64,000 bases of DNA from a virus (Duplodnaviria; Caudoviricetes), in the IMG/VR virus record IMGVR_UViG_3300028833_005986, positions 1 to 64,000 of that record; one strand, 5' to 3'. Position numbers and translations under genes: made by a program. The notes beneath the pieces are model-generated. The model was not told the DNA's origin. It searched no databases and worked only from the letters and a program-made list of their open reading frames with translations. Below, piece by piece: positions 1-37,100 of this stretch. Positions within the stretch are counted from its first letter, which is position 1, and every line of letters starts with the position of its first letter.

Positions 1-3000
1 TTATTTTACAGCTTCTAAAACTTCTTGTAAATCATTTTTATTCTTTAATATTTTTTGCTGTTCTTTAAATAATTCTAATTCTTTACGCAGAGGATCTAAA
101 TAATCAGTATCTGCAGTATATTTATTTTTTTCAATAGATGCAATATATAAAGTCTTTTCTTTTTCTAAATTTTGTGGCTGAGAATAAAATAAAATTCGAT
201 TATTAGAATAAAATGTTACTGAACCACGATTATTTTTAGTTCCTGAATAATATATATAATTACCAACTATAAAATCTTTTTTATATTTATTAAATGTTGC
301 ATTATTAAAAGTTTGAGTAATAATTTCATATGGTGTAATAATTTCTACATGATATAAATGAACAATTTCTTTTATTACACCTTGTTCATCTTTTCTTGCA
401 TAATCGAAGGGTGCGATTTCTGTAATTAATCCACCTATATTACAAACTGTAGAAGCAGGAACCATTTGTACATGAGTAATTGATTTAGCTCCTACCATGG
501 GATGATATTTAAAGGATACTTTATCATTATTAAGTATATCATTTGCATACATTTGAAAATTAGTTAATTTACTATTTAAAATTGAATATTCATTATTAAT
601 AAATGGCTTTAATAATGAAGTAAGTTTATTATTTTCTTGAACTTTTTGCAATCGTCCTTTTGCTTTTTTTCTAGTAGAAATTAACTTAGCTAAATCATTT
701 TCATTAAATGTTTTATCAGCATTTGATCCATATATACCGAATTCATTTAATTTTGAAAATGGTACAATAATAGTATTATCTTTTTCAAATACTAATTGTC
801 TATCTTCTTGTAAAAATTTAGGTAATTGAATTTTTTCTAATATGTAATTTTTTTCAGCTTTTTGATTTTTATAATCATAATAAAATTCAAACCATGTAAG
901 TAATTCTCCTCGACTTAAATATATTGGCATTCTACCAAATAATTTATTTTCTTCAGTTAATGTTTTATCTTCGAAAATAATAGGTAATCCTTCAAAACAA
1001 TCATTATTAATTAATGTTTCAATTATTTTTTTATTAACTGCGCCTTTTGCCGCACGTGCAAAAAAATCATTAATGGAATCATAAGGTTGATTTTCTAAAA
1101 TAATCTGAATTGCTGCATTACCAATACCTTTTATTTGACCTAATCCAGTACGAATATAATCATCAGTAATAATAGCCTCAGATTGAGATAAATTTATATG
1201 AGGACCTAATATATTTATTCCTTTATGTTCTGCTTCTTGTTTATATAAAGCAAATTTAGAATTATCAAAAGTAATCATCGCTGCATAAAATGCGATCGGA
1301 TAATTAGCTTTTAACCAAGCCATTTGCATAGTTATTATTGAATATGCGTAAGCCGTTTAAAATATGGACTATATTTTAATATATATATTAAAGATTATTA
1401 GTCTCTGATATAATTTATTATATAAGTTAATAAGTATTAATTTAATTTATCATATAAAATATTACCTTTACGCAATATTCCAATATTATTATAATATATT
1501 TCATTTTTTAAAATTTGCATATTAGTAATTATACTTGTACTTAATTGATAAAATGGCATAGAATACTTTTTTCCTTGAATATTATGTAAATTTAAAGATT
1601 GCATATTAAACCAATTCTCTAATATATTTTTACACCAAGCTAAAAATTCTTTTGATGTACTTACAATATAAAATAACTTTCCATTATGTAATATGCAACC
1701 ATCACCATCAATAATGCCTTGAAATATATAAGGTAAAAATTGATATTCTTCAGGATATAAAATAGGTGGATATAAATTATATGTTTTATGATATACAATA
1801 CCAAATCGTCTTAGCTGTGATACTAATAATTGATTACCTAAAGTAAAATAATATATATTTTTTTTATACTTTATCAATTTATTAGATGAATTACAATTAT
1901 TATATGATCTGATTTTATACTTTATATTAAAATTATTAGCAAATAATATTACAGCTTCAAAATCAGTCATTCGTAAATCAATCTGATTTCTACAATTTAT
2001 ACAACCGTCAGTTAACATAATACCAATAAAATATGCTTTCCAAGCACAATCTAATAACGAAAAATCATAAGCATTATATATATATGTATTTAAATGATTT
2101 ATTGTTAACAAATATTTATTTACTTCATATGGTAATAAAATTTTTATAGGTGATACAATAGTTTCTAATTTATTTGAATGTCTAATAATATTACTATTAG
2201 TAATATTTTCATAGGTATGAATAATATTATATATACTATTACGTGTTTTATATTGATATTTTATACATAAATTTTTAACTGACATACCTGCTTTATAATC
2301 ATTAATAATATTTATAATCTTTTTATTTTGTAAAAATTCTTTATTTTGCATATTAATCCCATTCATTATATTAACTTATATAATTTTATTATATACTGAT
2401 TAATTTAAAATTATAAATTATTCCAGTAATTTTTCTTTTTAAGTCACACTAAATGACTTGCATTACTATAAATTATTATTAATTTTTTAAATTAATACTT
2501 TTTCATAAAAAGTATAGATTATATCATTATGTATATATTTAACAATTAATCGTTGATATTAATATATACTTGTATATATTAATATACTAATTATTACTAT
2601 TAAGTAATTTTTTAGTAAAATATTAAATCAAAAAAGTTCTAACAATTAAAACCATAACCTGATGATGCAAGAATAGTTTCTAACATATATTCTGCAACAT
2701 CTTTACTAAATCCGTTATTTATACTTTTTTCAACAAATGTATTAATAAAATCTTCATATTGTTCTGGAAATTTCTTCTTTTTTTCAATATATCGGCGTAA
2801 TTGATCTGCTTCGCCGAAGCTAATATTTAACATTGTACTTAATATTTGCATATATTTATATTTATAATTAATATTATATTAATTATATTAATTTTCATTA
2901 ATAATTTGGAATATATCTTTATCATTAATATTAAATATTTATTCTCTAGAGTAAATATATAATAATATATATTTACTTTGATATTAATATATATAATATA

Positions 3001-4748
3001 TTTCATCAAATTAAATTAATTAACAAAGTATATTATCTTTGTTCTTGAAATAAAATTACTCCGTAAGTACGATTTAAATAACGATCAATACGTGGATCTA
3101 TTTTTACTCTAAATTTCTGATCATTTTTTGCTTTAATATAAGTATCAACTTGACCTGAACCGGGGCGAATTAATGCTGTTACAGCTGCAACTTCATGAAT
3201 ATTATTAGGCTGTATTTTTCTTAGTATTGGTTTTGAAATTTTAATATTATCCATCTGAAAAATCCCAATAACATCTAAATCACATAATAAATTATAAGCT
3301 TTAGAATCATCTAATGGAATATTTTCTAATTTTATTTCGCCATGCATTTTTTGTGCAGCATCTACAGCATAATATTTTTTAATTAATTGAAGAACTAAAT
3401 CCATTTGGGATAAAGCCGAAAGTTTTAATCAATTATATATAGACTATATTTTTTTTCAATTATATATTTACTAAATATTAGTCGTTAAATACATATTAAT
3501 TTATGAATTAATATGTATTACTGATCTATTAATTCCAGTAATTAATAATATTAACCGACGCATAAACTTTACGTCTATCTTAACTAATCCAAAATTTTCA
3601 AAATTTTCTTTTTCTGCTTGAGCTAGATATCCTGGTTCAGTATCTGCATTAATTACTTTTGCTTGAGTAACTGGTAATAAATCTGTTACTGGTATTGGAG
3701 ATACTCCAACACCAGATGGATGCATTGATATTTGTCTAACTGTACCTTCTAATAATTTAGCATATTTTATTACATCTGGATATTTTTTAATAAATTCCTG
3801 TGCACCTGGTAATTTTTCTAAATTATCTATATGATCTATTGGATTTCCGTCTAAATCTCTATCAGGAATATTTTTAGTAAAATTATTTACTTCATCATAT
3901 GGTATACCTAATACACGACCAACATCTTTTATACATTGTTTCATTTGCATTTTCATAAATGTACATACATTGGCTACATATTCTTTCCCATATTTATCAA
4001 TTAAATGCTGAAATACTTGAGGACCTTTTAACATACAATAATCTGTATCTATATCCATTAACATTTATATTTTCATATAAAATTAGACTATCTCTTTTAA
4101 CTTTTATATAAAGCTAATTAAAACGCTTCGAATAGTAACTCATCTTCTATTCTACTAAAATTAGTCGTTACACATTTAATAAAGATAAACTTCAATAATA
4201 ATTCTTAAATAAACATTGATATTTAATAGTTTTATTTAATTGAGTATATTCTTTTAAATTTAAAAAATCTAATATTTTATTATTAATTGTCATATATCCA
4301 AATTTATCTTTATTATTTTGCACGGTATCACCAGCTATTTATTTTTTTTATATATAATATATTAAAAAAAAATAAACCTTAGGCTTTCTTAGTTAGCTAT
4401 TTATTATTTAATTATTAAGAATTAATTTTATTTTGCTAATACCGTTAGCAACAAAATTTAATATTTGTTACACTGCTGAGTTATGGCATTCATTTTAAAT
4501 GCCCAATATCGTTTAGGCAAATGCTTTCGAGTAGGATTTAAAAAACGTTCAAAAATAAGATCATAATCAATAGGATCCATTTTTGTTATTCCTAATAGAT
4601 TATTAACTACAGATCCTCCGCCAGAATTATGTACTACTAAGCCATCAATATTATATGAATGAATATCATCTATTTCTAAATCGTATACTTTACCTTTATA
4701 ATGATATTCTTTTTTATTGGTAATTTTAATTAATTTAATAAATATCAA
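1..4748 (-). CDS. dnaE: DNA polymerase III alpha subunit, C-terminal half, with N-terminal split-intein (IntC) leader; 6 exons (4748-4515, 4055-3571, 3429-~3041, ~2856-2644, 2460-2453, 1353-1), ~893 aa
   Basis: Removing five introns joins the DnaE motifs in frame: FERFLNP..LP|DIDTD, GLVKIDV|LKL, YGVILFQEQ|YMQI, GYGFN|SSH|AYAY..AWLKANYP, plus HhH GLGQIKGIG. The exon sum is 2682 nt, divisible by 3. The PHP/N-terminal half is absent from the window. Confidence 0.9.
1354..2452 (-). mobile_element. Group I intron dnaE-I5 (1099 nt) carrying a LAGLIDADG endonuclease ORF
   Basis: P1 AAGUCAU/GUGACUU with terminal U-G; AAUUACUGGAA P4-like element; P7 CAGAGACUA/AUAUAGUCC; ends AAACG before GCT TAC GCA TAT. 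Confidence 0.9.
1437..2366 (-). CDS. Intron-encoded LAGLIDADG homing endonuclease / possible maturase
   Basis: Two motifs, YFIGIMLTDG and IFQGIIDGDG, with an N-terminal HTH-like segment; lies inside dnaE-I5. Confidence 0.88.
   Translation of the reverse strand: MNGINMQNKEFLQNKKIINIINDYKAGMSVKNLCIKYQYKTRNSIYNIIHTYENITNSNIIRHSNKLETIVSPIKILLPYEVNKYLLTINHLNTYIYNAYDFSLLDCAWKAYFIGIMLTDGCINCRNQIDLRMTDFEAVILFANNFNIKYKIRSYNNCNSSNKLIKYKKNIYYFTLGNQLLVSQLRRFGIVYHKTYNLYPPILYPEEYQFLPYIFQGIIDGDGCILHNGKLFYIVSTSKEFLAWCKNILENWFNMQSLNLHNIQGKKYSMPFYQLSTSIITNMQILKNEIYYNNIGILRKGNILYDKLN
2461..2643 (-). mobile_element. Miniature group I intron dnaE-I4 (183 nt)
   Basis: Short P1 AAUU/GAUU; UCAACGAUUA...GAUAUAAUCU (P7 GAUUA/UAAUC); P9 hairpin AUACUUUUU-AUG-AAAAAGUAU; terminal G at 2461; restores GFN-SSH. 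Confidence 0.8.
2857..3040 (-). mobile_element. Miniature group I-like intron dnaE-I3 (184 nt, boundaries +/-2, non-canonical ends)
   Basis: 5' hairpin AACAAAG/CUUUGUU; CUAGAGAAUA...AAGAUAUAUUCC (P7 GAAUA/UAUUC). Removal restores FQEQ-YMQI, but the intron then ends in A. Confidence 0.7.
3430..3570 (-). mobile_element. Ultra-small group I intron dnaE-I2 (141 nt)
   Basis: P1 GACGU/GCGUC; P4 UUACUG/CAGUAA; 12-bp P6 hairpin; UUUAACGACUA...AUAUAGUCU; terminal G at 3430; GT|A restores KIDV-LKLSAL. Confidence 0.88.
4056..4514 (-). mobile_element. Group I intron dnaE-I1 (459 nt, ORF-less)
   Basis: P1 UGCCU/GGGCA; UGCUAACGGU; GUAACGACUA/GAGAUAGUCU; terminal G; restores HLP-DIDTD at the catalytic aspartates. 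Confidence 0.9.
4626..4748 (-). mobile_element. C-terminal fragment (IntC, 41 aa) of a naturally split intein
   Basis: KLIKIT...VYDLEIDDIHSYNIDGLVVHN followed by Ser+1 (SGGGS, the DnaE GRG-S site); no intein N-part or DnaE N-half upstream. Confidence 0.85.
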
Positions 4749-13918: not shown

Positions 13919-15100
13919 TTATTTATTCAATTTATTAATATATTTTTTTGTGCATGAAATTATATTATCTACAATTTGATAAATATTATTTGATGCTATT
14001 ACTGCACCAGCAGCATGAGGAAAACCATTTCCGCCAAAATAAGACATGATTTCATTAACAAATATATTTCCCCGGCTACGGGCTTTAATTTTTGTATTAT
14101 TATTACTTTCGATAAAAAGAAATGCTACATCGGCTTCTTGTATATTTTTTAATTCTTCCATTAAATATTCTACTACATCATATGTAACATTATATTTTTT
14201 TAAATCTTCTTTCATTAATACTAAATATATAATATTATATTGATTATCATGAATAATATGTGTAAATGCATTATTAATTAGTTTTAATGCTGCTAACGGT
14301 TTTATTTTACATATTTGATTAATTATATTAAGATCTGCATTATTTTTTAATAATAATGATGCATAATATAATGCTAAAGCAGTAGTATTAGAATTTGTAA
14401 ATCCAGATCTAATAATTTATTAAAAAATCATTTTTAATATATTTTATATACCTCTTATAATAAGAGTAAAGACTAAATCATTAATAATATATTAACAATT
14501 TCAATAAATATTTACTATATATTAGCCGTTAATTTAGTATATATTATAATTAATATATGTTAAATATTGATAATATTCTTAAAGATTAAATACCAATAAT
14601 AAAATTAATTATGATATTAATTTAGTATCTCCAAAAATTCCTAAATATAAAGCTGTTGCGATTTGAGGAGTAATATTAATATTCATTTCTGATAAGAAAT
14701 CAAAAATTATCATTGTATTAGCAGGCCAAGAAATATTATAATAATAATTTCCAATTGATTCGTTATTATTATGATGATCTATAACAATTAATAATTTAGA
14801 TATGTTATCTAAATTAATTGTTCTATTCCGTGTAGAACAATCTACTAAAATGCATAAATCGTAATATTTTTTTGCTGTTTTTATTATATTAACATTTTTT
14901 AAAATTAAATTAAATATAGATGAATGTGAAGGCGCAATAATATCTACTTGCTTATTTAATGTTTGTAATGCTAAAGCTAATGCTACAGCAGATCCAATTG
15001 CATCGGCATCTGGAGAAAAATGGAAAGTTATTGCAATATTTTTAATTTGTTTATTATTAAATATATTTATAATTTTTTGCTTAATCTGAATTAAATCCAC
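13919..15100 (-). CDS. nrnA: DHH/DHHA1 phosphoesterase (NrnA-like), 2 exons (15100-14624, 14407-13919), ~321 aa
   Basis: H.SPDADAIGS, VD, IDHH, GIFGDT|SGFTNSNTT, GGNGFPHAAG; frame is open from 14407 to the stop. Confidence 0.85.
14408..14623 (-). mobile_element. Miniature group I intron in nrnA (216 nt, +/-1)
   Basis: P1 AGAUACU/GGUAUUU; UUAACGGCUA...GAUUUAGUCU; removal restores DT-SGF. Confidence 0.82.
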
Positions 15101-17583: not shown

Positions 17584-19988
17584 TTATTTTAAAATTAAAT
17601 TGTTTGCTATTTTATCAGTAATAATTATAGAATTAATATCATTTCTATCTGGAATATCATATTCAATTTTTGATAAAGCAGAACTAATAATACTTTTTAA
17701 TCCTCTAGCATTTGTTTTTTTATTAATAGCAAGTTTAGCAATTAGTTGTAATACTTCAGTAGTAAATTGTAAATTAACCTTATCCATTTGAAATAATTCT
17801 TGATATTGCTTTATAATAGCATTATTAGGTTCTGTTAATATTTTTATTAAATCATTTTCAGTTAAATGATTATAAATTACTATTTGCGGAATACGCCCTA
17901 CTAATTCTGGAATTAATCCATAATTAATTAAATCATTAGTAGTAACTTGTTTTAATAATTCATCTACTGTATATTTTTTATCTTCATATCCAAAACCAAT
18001 ATGTTTTTTATTAATACGATTTTTAATAACTGTATCTAATCCTACAAATGCACCAGACAATACAAATAAAATATTACTTGTATCAATTTCTACAGTATTA
18101 TCTAATAATGGTGTATGTTTATTACCCAATTGCACTTGTATTTTATCGCCTTCTAATAATTTTAAAAATTCTTGTTGTAAAGCAACACCCGCGACATCTC
18201 TGCCACTAGTAGTTTGCATATTTCTAGCTGTTTTATCAAATTCATCAATTAATATAATTGCTTTTTCAGCCTGAGATATATCATTATTACATTCTTTAAT
18301 TGCATGTGCAAGAATATCAGTTATATCTCGTCCTACTATGCCTGATACTGTTACAGAAGTTATTGATTCTAATATTAACGGTCTATCTAATAATTTTGCG
18401 AGTGCTTTAAATGTCGCCGTATTATGTGTAACAATAAAATCTTTACATATATATGTATGAGTAGGAGAATCAACAGTTATACATTTCATTTCTGCTTTAG
18501 TATTTAATTTTTGAACATTTTTAATTTTTAATATATCATATGTATGTTTTTTATTAGGACATTTTCTTTGATTAAATCTTTCTTTATGTTTTTTAGAAGT
18601 AAATAATACATCACTATCAGAACATATATATATAATATATGCTTGATTATCATGTCTATTATCTACTCGTAATTTAACTCTATAACCTAACGAATAAATT
18701 AAAAATTTAAAATCTTCTGCTAATTGTTTCGATACAGTACAAAAACTAATATGTCCTTTATTATTAATATGGCCATCAGTATCAATTAATCCTCGTACTA
18801 ATTCCAATCTATCTTCTATTGAAGAATATTTATATTCATTAGGAATAAATTTATCTTTAGCTAAGCAATATCCAAATGTATTTTTTATATAATTTCTTAA
18901 TTTAGATGAATCTGTATTTCGATATGTATGTCTTAACGGATATTTAGGATTAGTAACAAATTCGCCTAAATCATTATCTACAGTTAAGCATTTTATTTTT
19001 TCAATTAAATCATTTTCCGGGTTCGTAAAAACAATATCTTTACCAAAATGTCCATCACCTAATAATAGACCTAATAAATAAGGCGGTATTTCTAAATCTT
19101 TTTTATCAAATTGAATTGGTTTATTAATAGGAATAGCAATATTATATGTATAAGATTTTTTAGATTGAACTTGTATCCGCTGAATTATATTTTTAATTGA
19201 ATCAACACACCATTTACTTAAATTAAATCCATTATGATATCGTGTTTTAAACATCCATAAATGATCTTCACAACATTTTATTGATGTATTATCAATAAAT
19301 GTAATAAGCCATTCTTGCTTTAATTCATTTTGTGGATATTCTGCAATTACAGTAGTTAATTGTCCCATACTATCATAAACTACTGATCCAACATGAATAT
19401 CTTTTAACTGAACAAATCCAGAAGGAGTTAAAATCGGCGTATCTATAGGTAAACATTTTCCAACGCCGCTTTCCCCAATACAAAACATATTAGTACGATC
19501 TAAAGCATCTTTTTCACCATCTAAATTACTATTATACTGTATTTGTTTTTGATGTTCATATAATAATGTTGCTACTGTTTTTTTAGCATCTTCTTGACTA
19601 ATAATATATTTATCTAACCAAGCTTTTATTTCACTGGGCTTTTTTAATTCGTTAGTATTGTAAATTTCTTCATCTTTTTCTTGACTAAGAATTGTATCTA
19701 TATATTTTACTTTATTTTTACATAAAGTATAGACTATATCTTTTATTTCAATTATTATAATTTACTGTATTATAGTCGTTGAATAATATTTATTACTAAT
19801 GAAATTTTATTAAAACTATCTTAGTAATTATTTTCACATACAAATGCAATTAATTTTTACATCATAGATATACAATCAGAACAAACGCAAACATCGGCTG
19901 TTAAATCCATACCTTGCGAGACAATCATTTTTTTACTATCATCATGAGATTTACCACAAAAACTACATACATATTTTTTCTTTTTCAT
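17584..19988 (-). CDS. clpX: ClpX ATPase; 2 exons (19988-19859, 19697-17584) plus intein; ~402 aa mature
   Basis: Unannotated exon 1 encodes the CSFCGK..CVCSDC zinc finger after an AAGGAG RBS. Exon 2 has PSEIKAWLDKYIISQ, Walker A, DEFDK, GRDV, IGF loop and PELVGR. Confidence 0.92.
18421..19455 (-). mobile_element. Intein (345 aa) with LAGLIDADG domain in the ClpX Walker A motif
   Basis: GVGK|CLPIDT...FIVTHN|T; LLGLLLGDG and VRGLIDTDG. Confidence 0.92.
19698..19858 (-). mobile_element. Miniature group I intron in clpX (161 nt)
   Basis: P1 GAUGU/GCAUU; UUACUAA/UUAGUAA; UUCAACGACUA...AAGAUAUAGUCU; terminal G; T|AT restores CISMM-Y-TIL. Confidence 0.9.
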
Positions 19989-25844: not shown

Positions 25845-28537
25845 TTAGATATTATTAATTAAATATGCGTTATCTTCAATAAATTTTTTACGTAATACTG
25901 TATCAGTTCCCATACAAATTTTTAATGTTTCTTCAGCTTTAAGTGCATCATTAATTGTTATACGTTTTAAAATGCGTTTTGCAGGGTCTAAAATCGTTTC
26001 TTTTATTTCGTCAACCGACATTTCACCAATCATATATTATATACTGACTATCTCTTCACTATTAATAATAATAGGTTAACTTTTTCAAAAAGCGTACTAA
26101 TAACTTTCTTACTTATAATTAGTCGATACAGATTTGATTCCAATTTATACCATACCAAATATTACTAAAATATTTTTAAATTGTCCAATATTATATTACT
26201 TAGTAATATTATTAGTAATTTTATAAATTCCACATTTCATTTTTAAATACTTCGCCTTAGGAATAATATAAAATTATGTATAAATTATAATCACTTTCCA
26301 CGGGATTAATATTATCATCTTCCCCGTTAGCATATATTATATTTTTTATATTTAATATATACCCTAATAGTAAATTAGAAAAATTAATACAGGCTGGTTT
26401 CTGTCAACCTTTGAAGCGCTGTAGTTCAAAATTTAATGTAAAATTTTTATTTTTCCATTGCTGTAAAGCATTATCATCTCTTAAATATATACTTTGATTT
26501 TTATTATAAATTGCTCTATATAATGGCGGAATCGCAGCATATAAATGTCCTCGATTTATTATATCACGCATATATTTATGTAATAGAACAATTAATAATG
26601 CTTTTATATGCAGGCCATCCGAATAATTATTATATTTATTATAATAAATATATTCATATTATAATATGAATTTAGATTATATCTTTTTTATATAAAAATT
26701 AATATATAATCGTTGAATTTATTTTATATTATAATATATAAAAATTACTAATTTAATTTATATAGAAATTATTCTTAGTAATTAAATAATTTTTTAATGT
26801 CAATAATCAACATCTGCGTCAGTTAAAATTATAATTTTATCATATCGTAATTTAGCAACATCAAAATTTTTTCCAAATCCTGTACCAAATGACTGAATAA
26901 TACGTTGAATAGAAGGCGAATTAACAATTTGTTCTAATGAAGCTTTTTCAACGTTTAAAACTTTACCTCTTAATGGTAATACAGCTTGAAATTCTGTACT
27001 TATTCTTCCTGCAACAGTTGATCCAGCTGCTGAATTCAATTTTATATTATATACTAATTTTTAGTATATTCTTAATTTTTGTATTAAGTTAAGATTATGT
27101 CTTTATTCTATATTTTTTTTATAATCGTTAAATTATTTTTCATAATTAAATTTTATTACATAAAAATTATTATGAAAATAAATTATAAGTATATATAATT
27201 TTATATATTTCTTATAATTAAAAAATTATAGGCAATTATTTACCTTCTACAATGAAAATTTCTGAATATTGATTAGTACCTGCATTAATACAATCAGATA
27301 ATTGTGCTGGTAATAATGATTTTTTAGTTACTTTATTACTAATTCTTTTTTCAATTCGAGCTTTTCTTGCAGCTTCATCCGCGTCTTTTAATTGAATTAC
27401 ATAATTTATAATATTTAAAATTAATTGTTTAAATTCGTTATTTTTTAATTGCTTTTTAAAATATTCATTTAATACATTTTCTATTACAGGTATTATTTCT
27501 ACAGAATTTAATTTAATTTTTGTCTGGCCTTCAAATGAAGGATTAGTCATTTTTATATTAATAATTAAATACATATTATCTAAATAATATTTTTGATCTA
27601 TCGGTGTTTTAAATAATTTATTTTTTATTCCAAAATTATTTAAAATTTCTACTAAACTTTTAATAGTAGTATTAACATGAGTTCCACCTGTATATGTATT
27701 TATATTATTACAAAATGATTTAATAAATGATAATGATTCCAATTCTTTATTTATTAAAAATATAATTTCTACATTATTACCATTAATATATATTGGTTCT
27801 TCAAATAATAATTTTTTATCTTTAACTAATTGCTTTATATAAGAATTTAATCCATCAGCATAACAAAATTGTTCTTTACTATTATTTAATTCATTAATAA
27901 AATTAATTGTTAATCCTGAATTTAAAGCTGCTAATTCTTGTAATCTATTTTTTATTTCATTACTAGGAAATATAGTTTGTTTAAATATAGACTTATCCGG
28001 TTTATAATAAATTTCTGTTCCAGTTATTTTATTATTATTTTCGTCTAATTCAGTTTGACCAATAACTTCTACATCTGTAATGGGAATACCTTTTTCAAAC
28101 TTTTGCTGATATATATTACCATCTCGATGTACTGTTACAATAAAAAAATCACTTAAAAAATTAACAGCAGATGATCCTACACCAAATTGACCAGAACTAA
28201 ATTTATATTGATCATTATTATATTTCCCACCTGCCATAAGTCGATTAAATGCTAGAGTCAAACTATTTATATCATTACCATCAGCGTCTTTAGTCATAGA
28301 ACATGGTACTCCTCGACCATAATCTCTAACTCGTACTGATCCATTTTTATATATATGTATATTTATAATATTACCATATCCAGCTAAAAATTCATCAATG
28401 GAATTATCAACTATTTCATATAATAATTGATTAATACCATGTTCATTAGTAGACGCAATATACATTGACGGTCGTAATCGAACATGCTCTCTATCCGTTA
28501 AAGCTTTTATAGATTCTGCATTATATTCATTGTTCAT
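25845..28537 (-). CDS. gyrB: Type IIA topoisomerase subunit B (GyrB/ParE-like); 4 exons (28537-27242, 27036-26809, 26619-26407, 26030-25845), 640 aa
   Basis: Splicing restores VEG|NSAAGS, PLRGK, TDADV|DGLHI and QRFKG|IGEM. Exon 3 is missing from the ORF track. Exon sum 1923 nt. Confidence 0.93.
26031..26406 (-). mobile_element. Group I intron gyrB-I3 (376 nt)
   Basis: P1 AGGUUG/CAGCCU; UGCUAACGGGGAA..CCCGUGGAAAG; GUAUCGACUA/GAGAUAGUC; terminal G. Confidence 0.9.
26620..26808 (-). mobile_element. Miniature group I intron gyrB-I2 (189 nt)
   Basis: P1 AUGUU/GACAU; UUCAACGAUUA...AAGAUAUAAUCU; ends AUUCG. Confidence 0.88.
27037..27241 (-). mobile_element. Miniature group I intron gyrB-I1 (205 nt)
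   Basis: P1 AGGU/GCCU; UUUAACGAUUA...AAGACAUAAUCU; ends AUUG. Confidence 0.88.
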
Positions 28538-28605: not shown

Positions 28606-29958
28606 TCAACTCCATATATATTTACCACACTTCTGTATCAACTCCACCTTCCTATACATAGGCCTTATTTCTCTACGCTTCTCTATCTTATCTCCTTTAC
28701 TCTTCCTCGGTATTCTTACCCATCTTTCCTGCCGCATTTTTAATGCTAATGGACCATCTTCCATCCTACCGTCTATATACCAATATCTATTCAGATATCT
28801 AACTATATCATAGCGCCTATATCTATTCTTCTCATAACTCTGTATATTTCTCTTCTTCACATTACCTTTTAAAATTTTATCTTTATATATCTTCCTATTA
28901 TGATTTCTTACTTTCTTCATATAATATACCTGAACATCATGTCTACTACGCTTATAGCAGTTATCTGCTATTATTCTCGCATCTATATGATGGTCTTTTT
29001 CTAGTCCTAATTGTATACGTTTCATTTTAGTTTCATATCCATATGTTTTCTCTATTTTCAGCTTTGCTGATACGCCTTCAGCGTCCGAGCGTGCTCGGAA
29101 ACCTACTTCATATCCTAATTTTTTTAATTCATTATATATTCTATCTTTCAAGATATTTAATTTTGTATCTTCTTTATATTCTTTTATTTTAAATGTTACT
29201 GTCTTATTTTTCTTTAAATATTCATGTACTTGTTTATGACAATGCTCACATAAAGTAACTAAATTATTAGGTACGTTAGTACCTCCTTGACTTCTAGGTT
29301 TTATGTGATGTACTTGTAATTGTATATTCTTTTTCTTTAAATCTTCTATATGTTTATTACATTTTTGACAAGTATAATTATCTCTTTTTCTTACATATAA
29401 TTTTATATTTTCTTCTTGATATAAATTACCTTGTTGATACTGTATACCTTGTATATTAGGATCTTTTAATTTTTGAATATCAAAAATATTATATTCATAT
29501 CTTACTTTATCTATATTTACATATTTATTAAAAAATTTAACAATATTAATATAAGTTAATAAACTAGCTTGTATAGATGGTGGAATCCATCCATCAACTT
29601 GCTTATTATATATTTTTCTTCTATTTTGCCACCTAGATGGTCTATATCTTAATCTATTTCTTCTTGTTCTGCGTGCACTTCTTCTAGCTTCTAGCAATTT
29701 AGGTATATCTGTTCTTTGTTCTAATTGTGCTTCTAAAAGCACACGTTGTTTAGTAGTAATAGAAATACCTATTGTTTTACCAGGATCTATGCCAATAGTA
29801 ACATCTTGAAATTTAGGATTATCAATTTGATAATTAAGTTTAATAGTGAAAGGAAAAGTTTTAACTATTTTTGCTTTTTTCTTTTTTAAGAGAATTCTAG
29901 CTTTAGCTGGGTGACAAGGCATAAGCCTTGTACCGTCTTTATTAAAAACCAAGACCAT
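28606..29958 (-). CDS. iscB: IscB RNA-guided nuclease (OMEGA), copy 1
   Basis: PLMP-like N-terminus (RLMPC), RuvC-I IGIDPG, Arg-rich bridge helix, HNH (HHIKPRSQGGTN..LC..CH), RuvC-III HHIDA. Confidence 0.92.
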   Translation of the reverse strand: MVLVFNKDGTRLMPCHPAKARILLKKKKAKIVKTFPFTIKLNYQIDNPKFQDVTIGIDPGKTIGISITTKQRVLLEAQLEQRTDIPKLLEARRSARRTRRNRLRYRPSRWQNRRKIYNKQVDGWIPPSIQASLLTYINIVKFFNKYVNIDKVRYEYNIFDIQKLKDPNIQGIQYQQGNLYQEENIKLYVRKRDNYTCQKCNKHIEDLKKKNIQLQVHHIKPRSQGGTNVPNNLVTLCEHCHKQVHEYLKKNKTVTFKIKEYKEDTKLNILKDRIYNELKKLGYEVGFRARSDAEGVSAKLKIEKTYGYETKMKRIQLGLEKDHHIDARIIADNCYKRSRHDVQVYYMKKVRNHNRKIYKDKILKGNVKKRNIQSYEKNRYRRYDIVRYLNRYWYIDGRMEDGPLALKMRQERWVRIPRKSKGDKIEKRREIRPMYRKVELIQKCGKYIWS

Positions 29959-30659: not shown

Positions 30660-31961
30660 TCAATTCCATATATATTTTCCACATCTCTGTATCAACTTCA
30701 CCTTACTATACATAGGCCTTATTTCTCTACGTAATTCTATCTTATCTCCTTTACGCTTACTCGGTATTCTTATCCATCTTTCCTGTCGCATTTTTAATGC
30801 TAATGGGCCGCTTTCTGCCCTACCATTCACATACCAGTATCTATTCAGATATCTCACTATATCATAGCGCCTATATCCATTCTTCTCATAACTCTGTATA
30901 TTCCTCTTCTTCACATTGTCTTTTAAAATTTTATCTTTATATATCTTTCTATTATGATTTCGCACTTTCTTCATATAATATACTTGACTATCATGCTTAC
31001 TTCGCTTATAGCAGTTATCTGCTATTATTCTTGCATCTATATGATGGTCTTTTTCTAATTCCAACTGTACTCTTTTTATTTTAGTTTCATATCCATATGT
31101 CTTCTCTACGTCATATCCTAATTTTATTAGTTCCTTATATATTCTATCCTTAAGTATATTTAATTTTGTATCTTCTTTATATTCTCTTATATTAAATCTT
31201 ACTGTCTTATTTTTCTTTAAGTATTCATGTACTTGTTTATGACAATGTTCACATAAAGTAACCAAATTTTCTGGTACATTAGTACCTCCTTGGCTTCTAG
31301 GCTTTATGTGATGTACTTGTAATTTTATATTATTCTTTTTTAAATCTTCTAAAGATTTTTTACATCTTTGACAAGTATACTTATCTCTTTTTCTTGCATA
31401 AGATTTTGCATTTTCTTCTTGATATAAATCACCTTGTTGATACTGTATACCTTGTATATTAGGATCTTTTAATTTTTGAATATCAAACTTATTATATTCA
31501 TATTTCATTTTATCTATATTAATATATTTATTAAAAAATTTAACAATATTAATATAAGTTAATAAGCTAGCTTGTATAGATGATGGTATCCACCCATCAA
31601 CTTGTTTATTATATATTTTTCTTTTATTTTGCCACCTAGATGGTCTATATCTCAATCTATTTCTTCTTGTTCTACGTGCACTTCTTCTAGCTTCTAGTAA
31701 TTTAGGTATATCAGTCCTTTGCTCTAATTGAGCCTCAAAGAGGACGCGTTGTTTAGTAGTAATAGAAATACCTATTGTTTTGCCAGGATCTACGCCTATA
31801 GTAGCGTCTTGAAGTTTAGGATTATCAATTTGGTAATTAAGTTTAATAGTAAAAGGAAAAGTTTTAATGATTTTAGCTTTTTTCTTTTTTAATAATATTC
31901 TAGCTTTAGCAGGATGAGTAGGCATTAATGCCTTACCATCTTTATTAAAAACGAAAACCAT
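30660..31961 (-). CDS. iscB: IscB RNA-guided nuclease (OMEGA), copy 2
   Basis: Close paralogue of copy 1 with the same motifs; start moved to MVFVF at 31961 (AAAGGAG RBS, alignment to copy 1). Confidence 0.92.
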   Translation of the reverse strand: MVFVFNKDGKALMPTHPAKARILLKKKKAKIIKTFPFTIKLNYQIDNPKLQDATIGVDPGKTIGISITTKQRVLFEAQLEQRTDIPKLLEARRSARRTRRNRLRYRPSRWQNKRKIYNKQVDGWIPSSIQASLLTYINIVKFFNKYINIDKMKYEYNKFDIQKLKDPNIQGIQYQQGDLYQEENAKSYARKRDKYTCQRCKKSLEDLKKNNIKLQVHHIKPRSQGGTNVPENLVTLCEHCHKQVHEYLKKNKTVRFNIREYKEDTKLNILKDRIYKELIKLGYDVEKTYGYETKIKRVQLELEKDHHIDARIIADNCYKRSKHDSQVYYMKKVRNHNRKIYKDKILKDNVKKRNIQSYEKNGYRRYDIVRYLNRYWYVNGRAESGPLALKMRQERWIRIPSKRKGDKIELRREIRPMYSKVKLIQRCGKYIWN

Positions 31962-31962
31962 C

Positions 31963-32323
31963 TTTAATACTCCTTTGTGAAAAGGATTTATAATCATAAT
32001 ACTTATTTATATTAATTTAATACTTATTTATATTAATTTAATACTTATATGAAATATTCATATTAAATTGCTATAAATAGTAAATAAACTCCCATGCTAA
32101 AGTTATCTCATGTTTTAATTTTACCTACATAGTAGGTAAAATATGACTATAACACTGTTACTTTATATATTAAGAGATACTCAAGTAGGAATATATAAAG
32201 TAACTGTTTAATTATAATCCGTAGAGTTTTAAACTGGAAGAACACTTAAAAGTACCTATAATATAATGAGATAACGTAGTCTACTCTGTAGACTTAAGCT
32301 GATAGGTTAATTGAGTATTAACC
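31963..32323 (-). ncRNA. omega-RNA of IscB copy 2
   Basis: Near-identical to 29960-30300, with one swapped hairpin and a 21-nt tandem duplication near the 3' end. Confidence 0.82.
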
Positions 32324-34182: not shown

Positions 34183-37100
34183 TTATTGATCTTCTTCAAA
34201 CATTTTTTCGCTTACTAAATCATTATACAGTTTATTTTCAAGTTTTTTTCTAGCGTCTCCGTCCTCAACGGTATTTTGCTTTTCAATAACCCATTTAGGC
34301 GGATATTTATATATAGAAGTTTTTATTCCATTAGCATATTTAGTTTTAGCAGCTTGTCCCATAGATGCTTGCATAAAATTTATATATGTTTCCATTATAC
34401 CTTCTATAGTAATTCCTGTATCTCCGTTTCTTCGTTCTTTCCCGCGTTCATTAGCAGCCATATTATACCACTTAGATATAAATGATTTAGGAGTTCTAAT
34501 ATAAGCTAAACCATGACACAATTTAGCATCTGAACTTTTTAAATATCGTTTTACTTCTTCTTTTATGTCTGATAAATCTTGTAAAGCAGCTAATCCAATT
34601 GAAGATAATAAAGTATTAGCATCACTTACAGCATCTGCGATATACTGTAATTCTTCATCAATATTTATATTTTTAAATACTGTAAGTTTTCCCTTAAAGC
34701 CTTCTGCTTCTGCTTCTACTTGTTCCTTTTCCATTTCTGTATGAAGTTTATTAAAACGATTACTAATATTATATTTACCAGTTCCAAAAAATGCTACAGC
34801 AAATGGAGAAATCCTACCATATTGATCACAACAGCCTTCAATATAAGGCTCGACTCGAGCATGAATTGCTTTTATTTTTTGTAAACCTTCGTCAGTATTA
34901 ATATCAATATTATATAAAGTATTTATAAAATAAAATAATACTGATTGTCGTTTTTTATTATCTAATTCTAATATCGTATTACGTAATCTTTTTTGTATTC
35001 CTAATAAAATTTGTTCTTGTATTTTACCTAATTGATTTATTTTAATTAACCAATTTTTATTTAATTGGTGTAAATCTTTATCATAATAATCGTCTTCATA
35101 TTCTTTTTGAGTATCATATAATTGATTAAATATATTATTATATATCTGTTTTGCGGTACATTTTCCCCATACCGAATCTTTATATATAATATCAATAGAA
35201 TTCGCAATATTAAAACGCTTAAATGTTTTCCATAAATTTATATTTTCTCCGTATTTTATTAATAAGCATGTTTGAGTTTTTGTGCTATTATAAATTTTTA
35301 TATAGAATTGAGTATTTTCTTCTTCTCCAAAATTTTGCATTATTGAATTATTAGCTTCATTTTCATTGTTATCTGGATTTCTTGCTGCTATATTTTGATT
35401 TGATATCCATGTTTGAATTAAGCTATAAATATTATGCGGGTGATTACCGGATTTATTATTTTTTAATAATTTTCTGAATAAATATTAAAATTATATTTTT
35501 AATATTAAAATAAAATATTTTTAATATCTTTTAAAATAGATTTTAATATATTATACTTATATTTATGTATAAGCATAGATTATATCTTTATATAAAAATT
35601 ATATAAATAAAATTCAACAAAAATATTTACTATATATAATCGTTATATTATTTATTATAAATTTATAATGAATAATTATGAATTTTAATATAATTATTAT
35701 ATTTTCATAAATTATATTAATTATGCTACTTTATATATAAATAGCTTCATTAATATCATTAATTCTTTCGGTTGAGCATAATTCATTTATTTGATTTATG
35801 AAACTACCAATACTCGTACGATAGCTAGTTAATAAATTTGATATACGCTGTTTAGGATGCAGTTCTTCCCATGTTGCTATATTATCTTTAATAATTTGTG
35901 TACTAGATTTTAAACTGCATAAATCATCAATCATTTTTCGAAGATATTTTATAACTGTATGCCATCTTTCTGGAGAAAACTTTTTTTTAGCTTGTGCAGA
36001 ATTAGAATCGCGCTTTTTCATATATACGTCATTTAATTTTTGTAAAGTTTCTTCTAACGATGAAAATCCGCCATGTGATAATTCTAAAAAATCATCTAAT
36101 TTTTGATTATTAATTACATTTATAATTTCTCCAAAAGACTGATTCGTTACAGGTGTAATAAAATTATTTTTAGAATTTAAGGCCTTATATTTATTATTAA
36201 AGCATGTGTTACGGTATCTTTGTAATTTACTAGTATTATTTTTAATAGCATCAGTTAATTCTTTTAAAGTAGTAATATCATTTAATATAGGATTATTACT
36301 AAATGTTGAAGCTAAATTTAATGCTAATTGTCTAGCTCGTAAAAAGACATTATTATCGAATTCTTCTAATTTAGCATTTTCTTCAATAGTTAAATTCAAA
36401 TTTAATAAATTACGGCGTATATTAACTATACTACGTAATTGAGAAATAATAATATCAGCTTGTTTTGAAGTTAACTCCTTATCTTTTACGCGTTGATATA
36501 ATTTTTCAATTATATCATTACCAAAATATCTATGACATTCTTCTAAATTAAATTGCTCAATACCTTGTGGATCTAATAATATTTTACGATTATTAACCTT
36601 TTTAATAACATCTGGATCTGTTAATGCTGATTCGTCATATTTATCATAAATATTTGAATTTTTTAAAATTGTATCAAAAATAGCTCTTTTTAAATTATCA
36701 AATAATTGTTGATATTTATTTATATTAATAGATGCAAAGGAATTTAAACCTTCAACTATAGCTTTACGTAATTCGGTATACTGTTCAGATGCCAATGAAT
36801 TAACTTGTACTTGTTGATATTTTTTAAAAAAAATTTCAATTCGTCTTATTAAGGCAAAAAAACCATATACTTTGTTAAGCGTAGCTTCGCTATCTTGTGA
36901 ATCTTTTACGCCTTCTTTATAAATTTTATATATCTGATTAACAATACGTTCTTTATTAACATTAGTATATTCATTATGCGCACGATTTAACCAAGAAAAA
37001 GATGTAGCATAAATTGAATCTTTAATAATTGGTAGTAAATCAGCATAATATTTAGCTTGTTTTAAAAATTGCCTTATAAATCGAGCGAATCGCAATTGAA

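What the first reader, a model, noticed from the sequence alone, without database searches (positions are those of the whole stretch)
3430..3570. 141-nt group I intron with essentially no P2, P5 or P9
The whole intron reads as P1, P3, P4 (UUACUG/CAGUAA closed by a 12-nt loop), one P6 hairpin, P7 (GACUA/UAGUC), a weak P8, and only ~11 nt to the terminal G. J8/7 is AAAAUA rather than AAGAUA. It sits in the GLVKIDV motif of DnaE, so it must be removed precisely if the polymerase works. It is a candidate natural minimal ribozyme core.
Basis: partly seen in the sequence, partly recalled or inferred. Interest (0 to 1): 0.88.

Follow-up and report, generated by a model that had tools for sequence, protein, structure and literature searches.

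The report
Stripped-down intron in phage polymerase
A 141-base self-splicing-type (group I) intron interrupts a giant phage's DNA polymerase gene right after a catalytic residue; it has lost five helices and possibly a sixth that textbooks count as core, but it is one of dozens of such shrunken introns in this phage group and not the smallest.

Summary
Real intron, minus strand, 3570 to 3430, 141 nt, 17% GC. Intron-less alleles of close relatives give exactly the predicted junction (880 nt ungapped, 93% identical). It sits in the codon after the Asp matching E. coli DnaE D555. P1, P4, P6, P7 and terminal G are supported, P1, P6 and P7 by compensatory changes. P2, P5 and P9 are absent.

Corrections: the 'weak P8' is the P7.2 module of phage subgroup IA2 introns (T4 td, nrdB). 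P7.1, P8 and the homologous 3' strand of P3 are deleted, and no P3 pairing beats shuffles. A 7-bp P10 probably replaces P9; a 162-nt ortholog keeps P9. The J8/7 variant is common. The genome holds more than 20 such introns, and relatives reach 122 to 131 nt.

Most likely it splices by group I chemistry with protein help; the phage encodes a rare HrpA-like RNA helicase. No RNA evidence was obtained. This scan has noted miniature, P8-less and P9-less phage introns on other DNA, and intron-rich jumbo phages are published. The open point here is whether P3 exists.

The parts
3430..3570 (-). Group I-type intron, 141 nt, dnaE intron 2; terminal G at 3430
   Evidence: intron-less alleles
3571..3575 (-). 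5' exon strand of P1; U at 3571 pairs with G at 3561
   Evidence: the C-G pair at -3 is U-A in ortholog L018
3564..3570 (-). P10, intron strand (7 nt)
   Evidence: -3.9 kcal/mol, shuffle p 0.01
3419..3425 (-). P10, 3' exon strand (+5 to +11)
3557..3561 (-). Internal guide sequence (P1 3' strand)
3541..3556 (-). Single segment between P1 and P4: no P2; holds the 5' strand of P3 (partner unresolved) and J3/4
3519..3540 (-). P4 (3540-3535 with 3524-3519) closed by a 10-nt loop; no P5
   Evidence: family variants
3489..3518 (-). P6 hairpin, 13 bp
   Evidence: 3 pairs change on both sides and 1 on one side, all 65 cells paired
3479..3488 (-). J6/7 and P7 5' strand (R element; guanosine site)
3472..3478 (-). 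Collapsed P7.1 position (7 nt); possible relocated P3 3' strand
   Evidence: not significant
3455..3471 (-).
   Evidence: comparison with T4 td/nrdB and phage IA2 introns
3442..3454 (-). 8-nt J8/7 and P7 3' strand (S element); canonical P3' and P8 deleted before it
3430..3441 (-). 12-nt tail to terminal G; no P9
   Evidence: ortholog L018 has a 33-nt tail with a hairpin
3571..4055 (-). dnaE exon 2 (palm; ends two bases after the Asp matching E. coli D555)
3037..3429 (-). dnaE exon 3
4515..4748 (-). dnaE exon 1; begins with the C half of a split intein (about 4748-4626)
4056..4514 (-). dnaE intron 1, 459 nt, larger IA2-type with P7.2, P3' and P8
2853..3036 (-). dnaE intron 3, 184 nt, non-canonical ends
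2466..2648 (-). dnaE intron 4, 183 nt, followed by a 13-nt exon (2465-2453)
1354..2452 (-). dnaE intron 5, 1099 nt, with a LAGLIDADG-like ORF (1437-2366) in P6
19698..19858 (-). Sibling intron in clpX, 161 nt, with the same deletion of P3' and P8 after P7.2

Best explanation
A functional, heavily reduced group I intron descended from phage subgroup IA2, spliced from the dnaE mRNA by normal group I chemistry but probably with protein help. Shown: exact boundaries, restored frame, P1, P4, P6, P7, terminal G, P7.2 homology, absence of P2, P5, P7.1, P8 and P9. Inferred from group I biochemistry: a free guanosine bound at the G-C pair of P7 attacks at the U-G pair of P1; the terminal G then enters the same site and the exons are ligated. 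Inferred here: a 7-bp P10 replaces P9 in bringing in the 3' splice site. A weak AU-only P3 forms in a shifted register, using the collapsed P7.1 position, so that the P7.2 hairpin stands where P8 normally stands. Folding of a 17% GC core is assisted in the cell by host RNA chaperones or the ribosome, or by phage proteins (candidates: an HrpA-like DExH RNA helicase, or the LAGLIDADG protein of intron 5). The intron has no ORF, so it spreads or persists passively, through endonucleases encoded nearby.
For: Junction. All five introns removed give one 893-codon frame with every DnaE motif. Exons are under purifying selection in intron-bearing alleles (for example 43 synonymous against 7 non-synonymous codon changes versus L003). 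The intron is more conserved than its exons: 4-6 changes in 141 nt, none in P1, P4, P7 or the last 72 nt, against about 12% exon divergence from L016. It is present in at least six independent assemblies. Covariation: P1, P6, P7. A profile built without this intron or its orthologs finds it at E 1.5e-8. P10 is significant in the P9-less dnaE introns (window, L016, L011, L121: p 0.01-0.03) and not in the P9-bearing ortholog L018 (p 0.54). In vivo splicing of short introns of other jumbo gut phages is published (PMC12880540). Some phage introns splice only in vivo (PMC11878797). Protein help for group I introns is established (PMC3984707). Helicase.
Against: P3 is not statistically supported and its register differs between orthologs. 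The 131-nt P9-less intron has no significant P10 (p 0.38), the P9-bearing tail-sheath intron has a strong one (p 0.01), and the P10 tests are few and uncorrected. The helper proteins are only co-resident; no link to splicing is shown. The Rfam group I model does not detect the intron.
Confidence: 0.55

Rival explanations
1. Self-sufficient natural minimal ribozyme: the 141-nt RNA folds and splices alone.
For: All guanosine-site nucleotides of P7, J6/7 and J8/7 are kept and conserved. P1 and P10 are comparatively strong. The intron encodes no maturase. From memory, not checked here: engineered td and sunY derivatives lacking large parts retain activity.
Against: 17% GC. P7.2 and its neighbourhood do not fold on their own, and the best P3 is about -2.7 kcal/mol. 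Every peripheral brace (P2, P5, P8, P9) is missing at once. The global fold does not recover P4 or P7 in its centroid.
Confidence: 0.2
2. A P3-less degenerate class: the P3/P7 pseudoknot is lost, and a dedicated trans factor (phage protein or another RNA) holds P1, P4-P6 and P7 together, as group III introns of Euglena plastids relate to group II introns (analogy from memory).
For: The homologous P3' strand is deleted: 8-10 nt follow P7.2 in four introns at two sites, against 13-41 nt in siblings and 30-34 nt in T4. No alternative P3 is significant or conserved. Other introns of the clade break splice-site rules. The phage carries an RNA helicase almost unseen in cultured phages.
Against: A 5-7 bp AU-rich P3 can be drawn in three of the four short-gap introns, and with one G-C pair in the clpX intron. 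At 85% AU the test has little power: long-gap siblings also fail it. A related subfamily has a clear P3 (L011, p 0.01).
Confidence: 0.2
3. Not spliced: a dead insertion in a decaying provirus, or DnaE made as separate polypeptides from the flanking ORFs.
For: IMG/VR classes the record as a provirus. Exon 3 has its own ATG. Intron 3 of this copy ends in A.
Against: The eight codons between the junction and that ATG are conserved as coding sequence. Exons show purifying selection, and the intron core is more conserved than the exons. The same intron occurs in many independent assemblies, with compensatory changes in P1, P6 and P7.
Confidence: 0.05

Closest known systems
Phage subgroup IA2 group I introns (T4 td and nrdB; record NC_000866; IA2 features as given in PMC4227781)
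   Same: R and S elements, P7, and the P7.2 hairpin flanked by GUA and GAAA; insertion beside a conserved motif of a DNA-metabolism gene.
   Different: No P2, P5, P7.1 hairpin, P8 or P9; P3' deleted from its homologous place; no ORF; 141 nt and 17% GC.
Short group I introns of Jug jumbo gut phages (PMC12880540)
   Same: Swarms of ORF-less introns (18.5 per genome) splitting essential genes of giant phages; splicing supported by RNA reads for 37 of 76 tested.
   Different: Reported mean about 206 nt and found by standard covariance models; no analysis of lost helices in the passages read. This intron is shorter and is missed by RF00028.
Intron-split genes of Staphylococcus jumbo phages MarsHill, Madawaska, Machias (10.1101/2020.12.14.422802) and crAss-like Delta/Zeta phages (PMC7886860)
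   Same: Several introns and inteins in polymerase and gyrase genes.
   Different: Predicted from protein alignments or endonuclease domains; RNA structure not described in the passages read.
Small degenerate group I-like introns of Phialophora rRNA, 63-75 nt (PMC3160393)
   Same: Extreme reduction; reliance on P1, P7 and P10.
   Different: Fungal nuclear rRNA, IC1-derived, without P4-P6. This intron keeps P4, P6 and a canonical P7. These published cases also mean 141 nt is not a size record.
Azoarcus tRNA-Ile intron (about 200 nt; size from memory, called unusually small in papers)
   Same: Compact intron without large peripheral domains.
   Different: From memory: GC-rich, keeps P2, P3, P5, P8 and P9, and self-splices.

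Membership tests
Group I intron | [quoted passage not shown] | tested here: met
   compensatory change in L018
Group I intron | Terminal G; precise removal restores the host gene | tested here: met
Group I intron | P7 from R and S elements with the G-C guanosine site | tested here: met
   45 of 45 complementary in the clade
Group I intron | P4 and P6 | tested here: met
   (P6 covaries; P4 invariant among orthologs, variable and paired across the family, where pairing was a search condition)
Group I intron | P5 | tested here: not met
   10-nt loop only
Group I intron | P3 (pseudoknot with P7) | tested here: inconclusive
   best pairing p 0.34-0.47, register not conserved
Group I intron | P8 | tested here: not met
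   8 nt between P7.2 module and P7 3' strand, against 30-34 in T4
Group I intron | P9 | tested here: not met
   12-nt tail; ortholog L018 keeps a hairpin
Group I intron | P10 | tested here: met
   7 bp, shuffle p 0.01; no clean covariation
Group I intron | Match to Rfam RF00028 | tested here: not met
Group I intron | Guanosine-initiated two-step splicing | not testable with these tools
Subgroup IA2 | P7.2 hairpin between P7 and P3' | tested here: met
   same flanks as T4 td/nrdB; stem only 3-4 bp and not stable alone
Subgroup IA2 | P7.1 hairpin | tested here: not met
   7 unpaired nt
Subgroup IA2 | Extended domain 9 (P9.0, P9.1, P9.2) | tested here: not met
   definition in PMC4227781. Hence IA2-derived, not filed as IA2
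IStron | IS200/IS605 or IS607 component downstream of P9.2 | tested here: not met
   no ORF or inverted-repeat stem in 141 nt; some siblings in the genome lie next to TnpB-like genes

The most novel reading that the evidence does not exclude
A natural group I-derived intron that splices an essential mRNA without the P3/P7 pseudoknot, P8 or P9, keeping only P1/P10, P4-P6, P7 and P7.2, and scaffolded by a phage-encoded DExH RNA helicase or another trans factor: a group I counterpart of degenerate, protein-dependent group III introns.
Probability: 0.2. Interest if true: 0.82.

Novelty: new variant of a known kind. Interest (0 to 1): 0.52.

Why it matters
The clade supplies a natural deletion series at defined sites in an essential gene: the same intron with and without P9 (162 against 141 nt), and siblings with 41 down to 8 nt left where P3' and P8 belong. 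That makes two old questions directly testable with short synthetic RNAs: how little of the group I fold is needed, and whether P3 is dispensable or movable. It also shows that standard models (RF00028) miss this class, so replicative polymerase genes of such phages are annotated as fragments. If a phage helicase is the splicing factor, it would be a phage-encoded trans-acting splicing helper, which I did not find described in the papers searched. The broad phenomenon (tiny introns in jumbo phages) is already published and was seen repeatedly in this scan, which caps the score.

Tried and rejected
Rfam at gathering and E-value thresholds, and RF00028 on the genome: no hit on this intron. Folding the plus strand: wrong strand. 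The search for related loci in viral and metagenome contigs: no relatives; relatives came from the protein collection. BLASTN against cultured phages: only chance matches. Pattern scans for the short-gap architecture outside the clade: none, or chance hits without an R element; these exact-match scans are insensitive. 'P8' reading of the hairpin: rejected after comparison with T4. 'J8/7 variant is special': rejected. 'Smallest intron': rejected (PMC3160393). A helix between the orphan P3 strand and the 3' splice junction looked attractive by eye in three introns but is not significant (p 0.09-0.80). A compensatory change in P10 between window and L018 depends on register and is not claimed. 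My first intron-finding script had a bug (fixed). A paper on the loop E motif of td was not held, so 'loop E' for the GUA/GAA flanks rests on memory. Helicase relatives were not found in IMG/VR or in the related fragment G001, so its correlation with intron load is untested. I could not confirm a recalled 142-nt lower bound for fungal mitochondrial introns.

Full report
Setting. The window is the first 64 kb of a 167-kb, 22.8% GC virus record, estimated 34% complete. Its closest cultured DnaE relative is Bacillus phage G at 40% identity. The dnaE C half lies on the minus strand, 4748 to 1, begins with a split-intein C part, and is broken into Pfam DNA_pol3 fragments.

Observation. The element runs from 3570 to 3430 on the minus strand, 141 nt, 17% GC, ending in G. 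Its removal fuses exons 2 and 3 in a stop-free frame. The fused exons align ungapped over 880 nt at 93.4% identity to an intron-less allele, L117, and P0002, P0009 and P0011 read through the same motif. The junction lies in the Val codon right after the Asp that aligns with E. coli DnaE D555 (its catalytic role is established knowledge). Removing all five introns gives one 893-codon frame with all motifs. The same intron is in L003, L016/L017, L120 and L121, and by ORF spacing in two more assemblies. A diverged 162-nt ortholog sits at the same site in L018-L021. Exons of intron-bearing alleles change mostly synonymously. The intron differs by 4-6 bases, all in loops, in the segment after P1, or keeping pairs, and its last 72 nt are invariant.

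Anatomy. P1 has 5 bp with U-G at the splice site; the exon's synonymous third base at -3 changes together with the guide sequence in L018. P4 is closed by a 10-nt loop. P6 is a 13-bp hairpin with three double-sided changes among five orthologs (few, related sequences, so indicative only). P7 is canonical. In a test that left the middle base of R and S free, 45 of 45 cores in the clade were complementary, and the genome had 22 cores against 0-2 in shuffles. A sequence profile from 20 siblings, excluding this intron and its orthologs, finds it at E 1.5e-8, while Rfam does not. P2, P5 and P9 are absent.

The main correction. Between the P7 strands T4 td and nrdB read P7.1, GUA, P7.2, GAAA, P3', P8, J8/7, and GC-richer phage introns from IMG/VR read the same. 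This intron has 7 unpaired bases, GUA, a 3-bp hairpin, GAA, and then only 8 bases before P7. So the 'weak P8' is P7.2, and P7.1, P8 and the homologous P3' strand are gone. Siblings keep 13 to 41 bases there. The short form (8-10) occurs in this intron, in L018, and in the clpX introns of the window and of L142. Two sites in diverged phages share it, so it is not an assembly error. A 7-position AU-only P3 can be drawn with the collapsed P7.1 position (3554-3548 with 3478-3472, one U-U mismatch), which would put P7.2 in the place of P8. It is no better than shuffles (p 0.34-0.47) and its register differs in L018 and L142. The test is weak in such AU-rich RNA, so P3 is unresolved, not disproved. 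The J8/7 A-for-G change also occurs in full-size IA2 introns.

3' splice site. The first seven intron bases pair perfectly with exon bases +5 to +11 (p 0.01). P10 is also significant in the P9-less 122- and 123-nt relatives but not in the P9-bearing ortholog L018. The 131-nt intron does not fit, and the P9-bearing tail-sheath intron also has a strong P10.

Mechanism. Shown: boundaries, frame, helices P1, P4, P6, P7, and the losses. Inferred from established group I chemistry (PMC3984707): guanosine bound in P7 attacks the U-G site, then the terminal G replaces it and the exons ligate. Inferred: a relocated weak P3 and protein-assisted folding, because isolated helices are weak (P7 -3.4, P4 -4.6, P3 -2.7 kcal/mol) and all tertiary braces are missing. 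Host chaperones and ribosomes assist T4 introns, and some phage introns splice only in vivo (PMC11878797). This phage also encodes an HrpA-like DExH RNA helicase that is practically absent from cultured phage records. That is co-occurrence only. No RNA data could be examined.

Comparison with what is known. It works like a group I intron and descends from subgroup IA2, but it fails the IA2 features P7.1 and extended P9 (PMC4227781) and the textbook core features P5, P8 and P9, so I call it IA2-derived. Jumbo gut phages with about 18 short introns each (mean about 206 nt, splicing seen in RNA) are published (PMC12880540), as are intron-rich crAss-like and Staphylococcus jumbo phages. Smaller degenerate group I-like introns are reported in fungi (PMC3160393). 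Within this clade 122-, 123- and 131-nt introns exist. Earlier, unchecked notes of this scan record miniature, P8-less and P9-less phage introns in other genomes. In the papers searched I found no description of an intron lacking the homologous P3' strand; the search covers open literature only.

Verdict. Observation partly confirmed (intron, junction and losses yes; P8 no; P3 open). Interpretation partly supported. New variant of a known kind, interest 0.52. The P3-less, helper-dependent reading has probability about 0.2 and would deserve about 0.8.

Noticed in passing
G000:C1:122837-126781 (+); L143:238-4182: Phage-encoded HrpA-like DExH RNA helicase (motif II DEIH) with an intein, among virion genes. 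tblastn finds only 3 matches in 50,697 phage records, all to annotated HrpA/HrpB genes in records that look bacterial. Candidate splicing chaperone.
   Followed up: partly
window 2853-3036 (-), dnaE intron 3: The 5' exon ends in G paired to C (P1 covaries with L005), as in group B IStrons (PMC4227781). Relatives L005, L016 and L017 end the intron in G, but this copy ends in A, apparently after a 6-nt deletion; using the next G would break the frame. Two other assemblies have the same ORF spacing.
   Followed up: partly
window 2453-2465 (-): 13-nt exon between back-to-back introns 4 and 5.
   Followed up: partly
window 4626-4748 (-): DnaE C half starts with the C part of a split intein; the PHP-bearing N half is not in the 34%-complete record.
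   Followed up: partly
L018:3838-4030 (also L019-L021): Intron in the D-I-D catalytic motif of DnaE whose simplest reading has a U-A pair in place of U-G and no terminal G, whereas L005 at the same site is canonical.
   Followed up: no
L011:718-840, L121:5637-5758, G000:C1:92233-92363: Smaller introns, 123, 122 and 131 nt, of a second subfamily without P7.1/P7.2 and with little or no P8 or P9; P3 is clear in L011.
   Followed up: yes
L004:4335-6208 and L011:1332-3153: Related compact introns inserted 15 nt upstream of this site carry an endonuclease-like ORF after P7 (HNH_repeat domain); a possible trans source of mobility for this region.
   Followed up: partly
G000:C1 about 70200-80000, 108000-112000, 164000-167000: Several family introns lie directly before TnpB-like ORFs (OrfB_IS605): probable IStrons.
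   Followed up: no
window 28606-29958 and 30660-31997 (-): Two IscB-like ORFs (RRXRR + HNH, confirmed for the first) upstream of gyrB.
   Followed up: no
window 14470-14614, 19698-19858, 26620-26808, 35575-35702 (-): Further small introns of the same kind (clpX, gyrB, a DHH-family gene and an unknown gene).
   Followed up: partly
L121:5800-5990 and G000:C1 near 117780 (-): Introns whose 5' exon seems to end in C rather than U.
   Followed up: no
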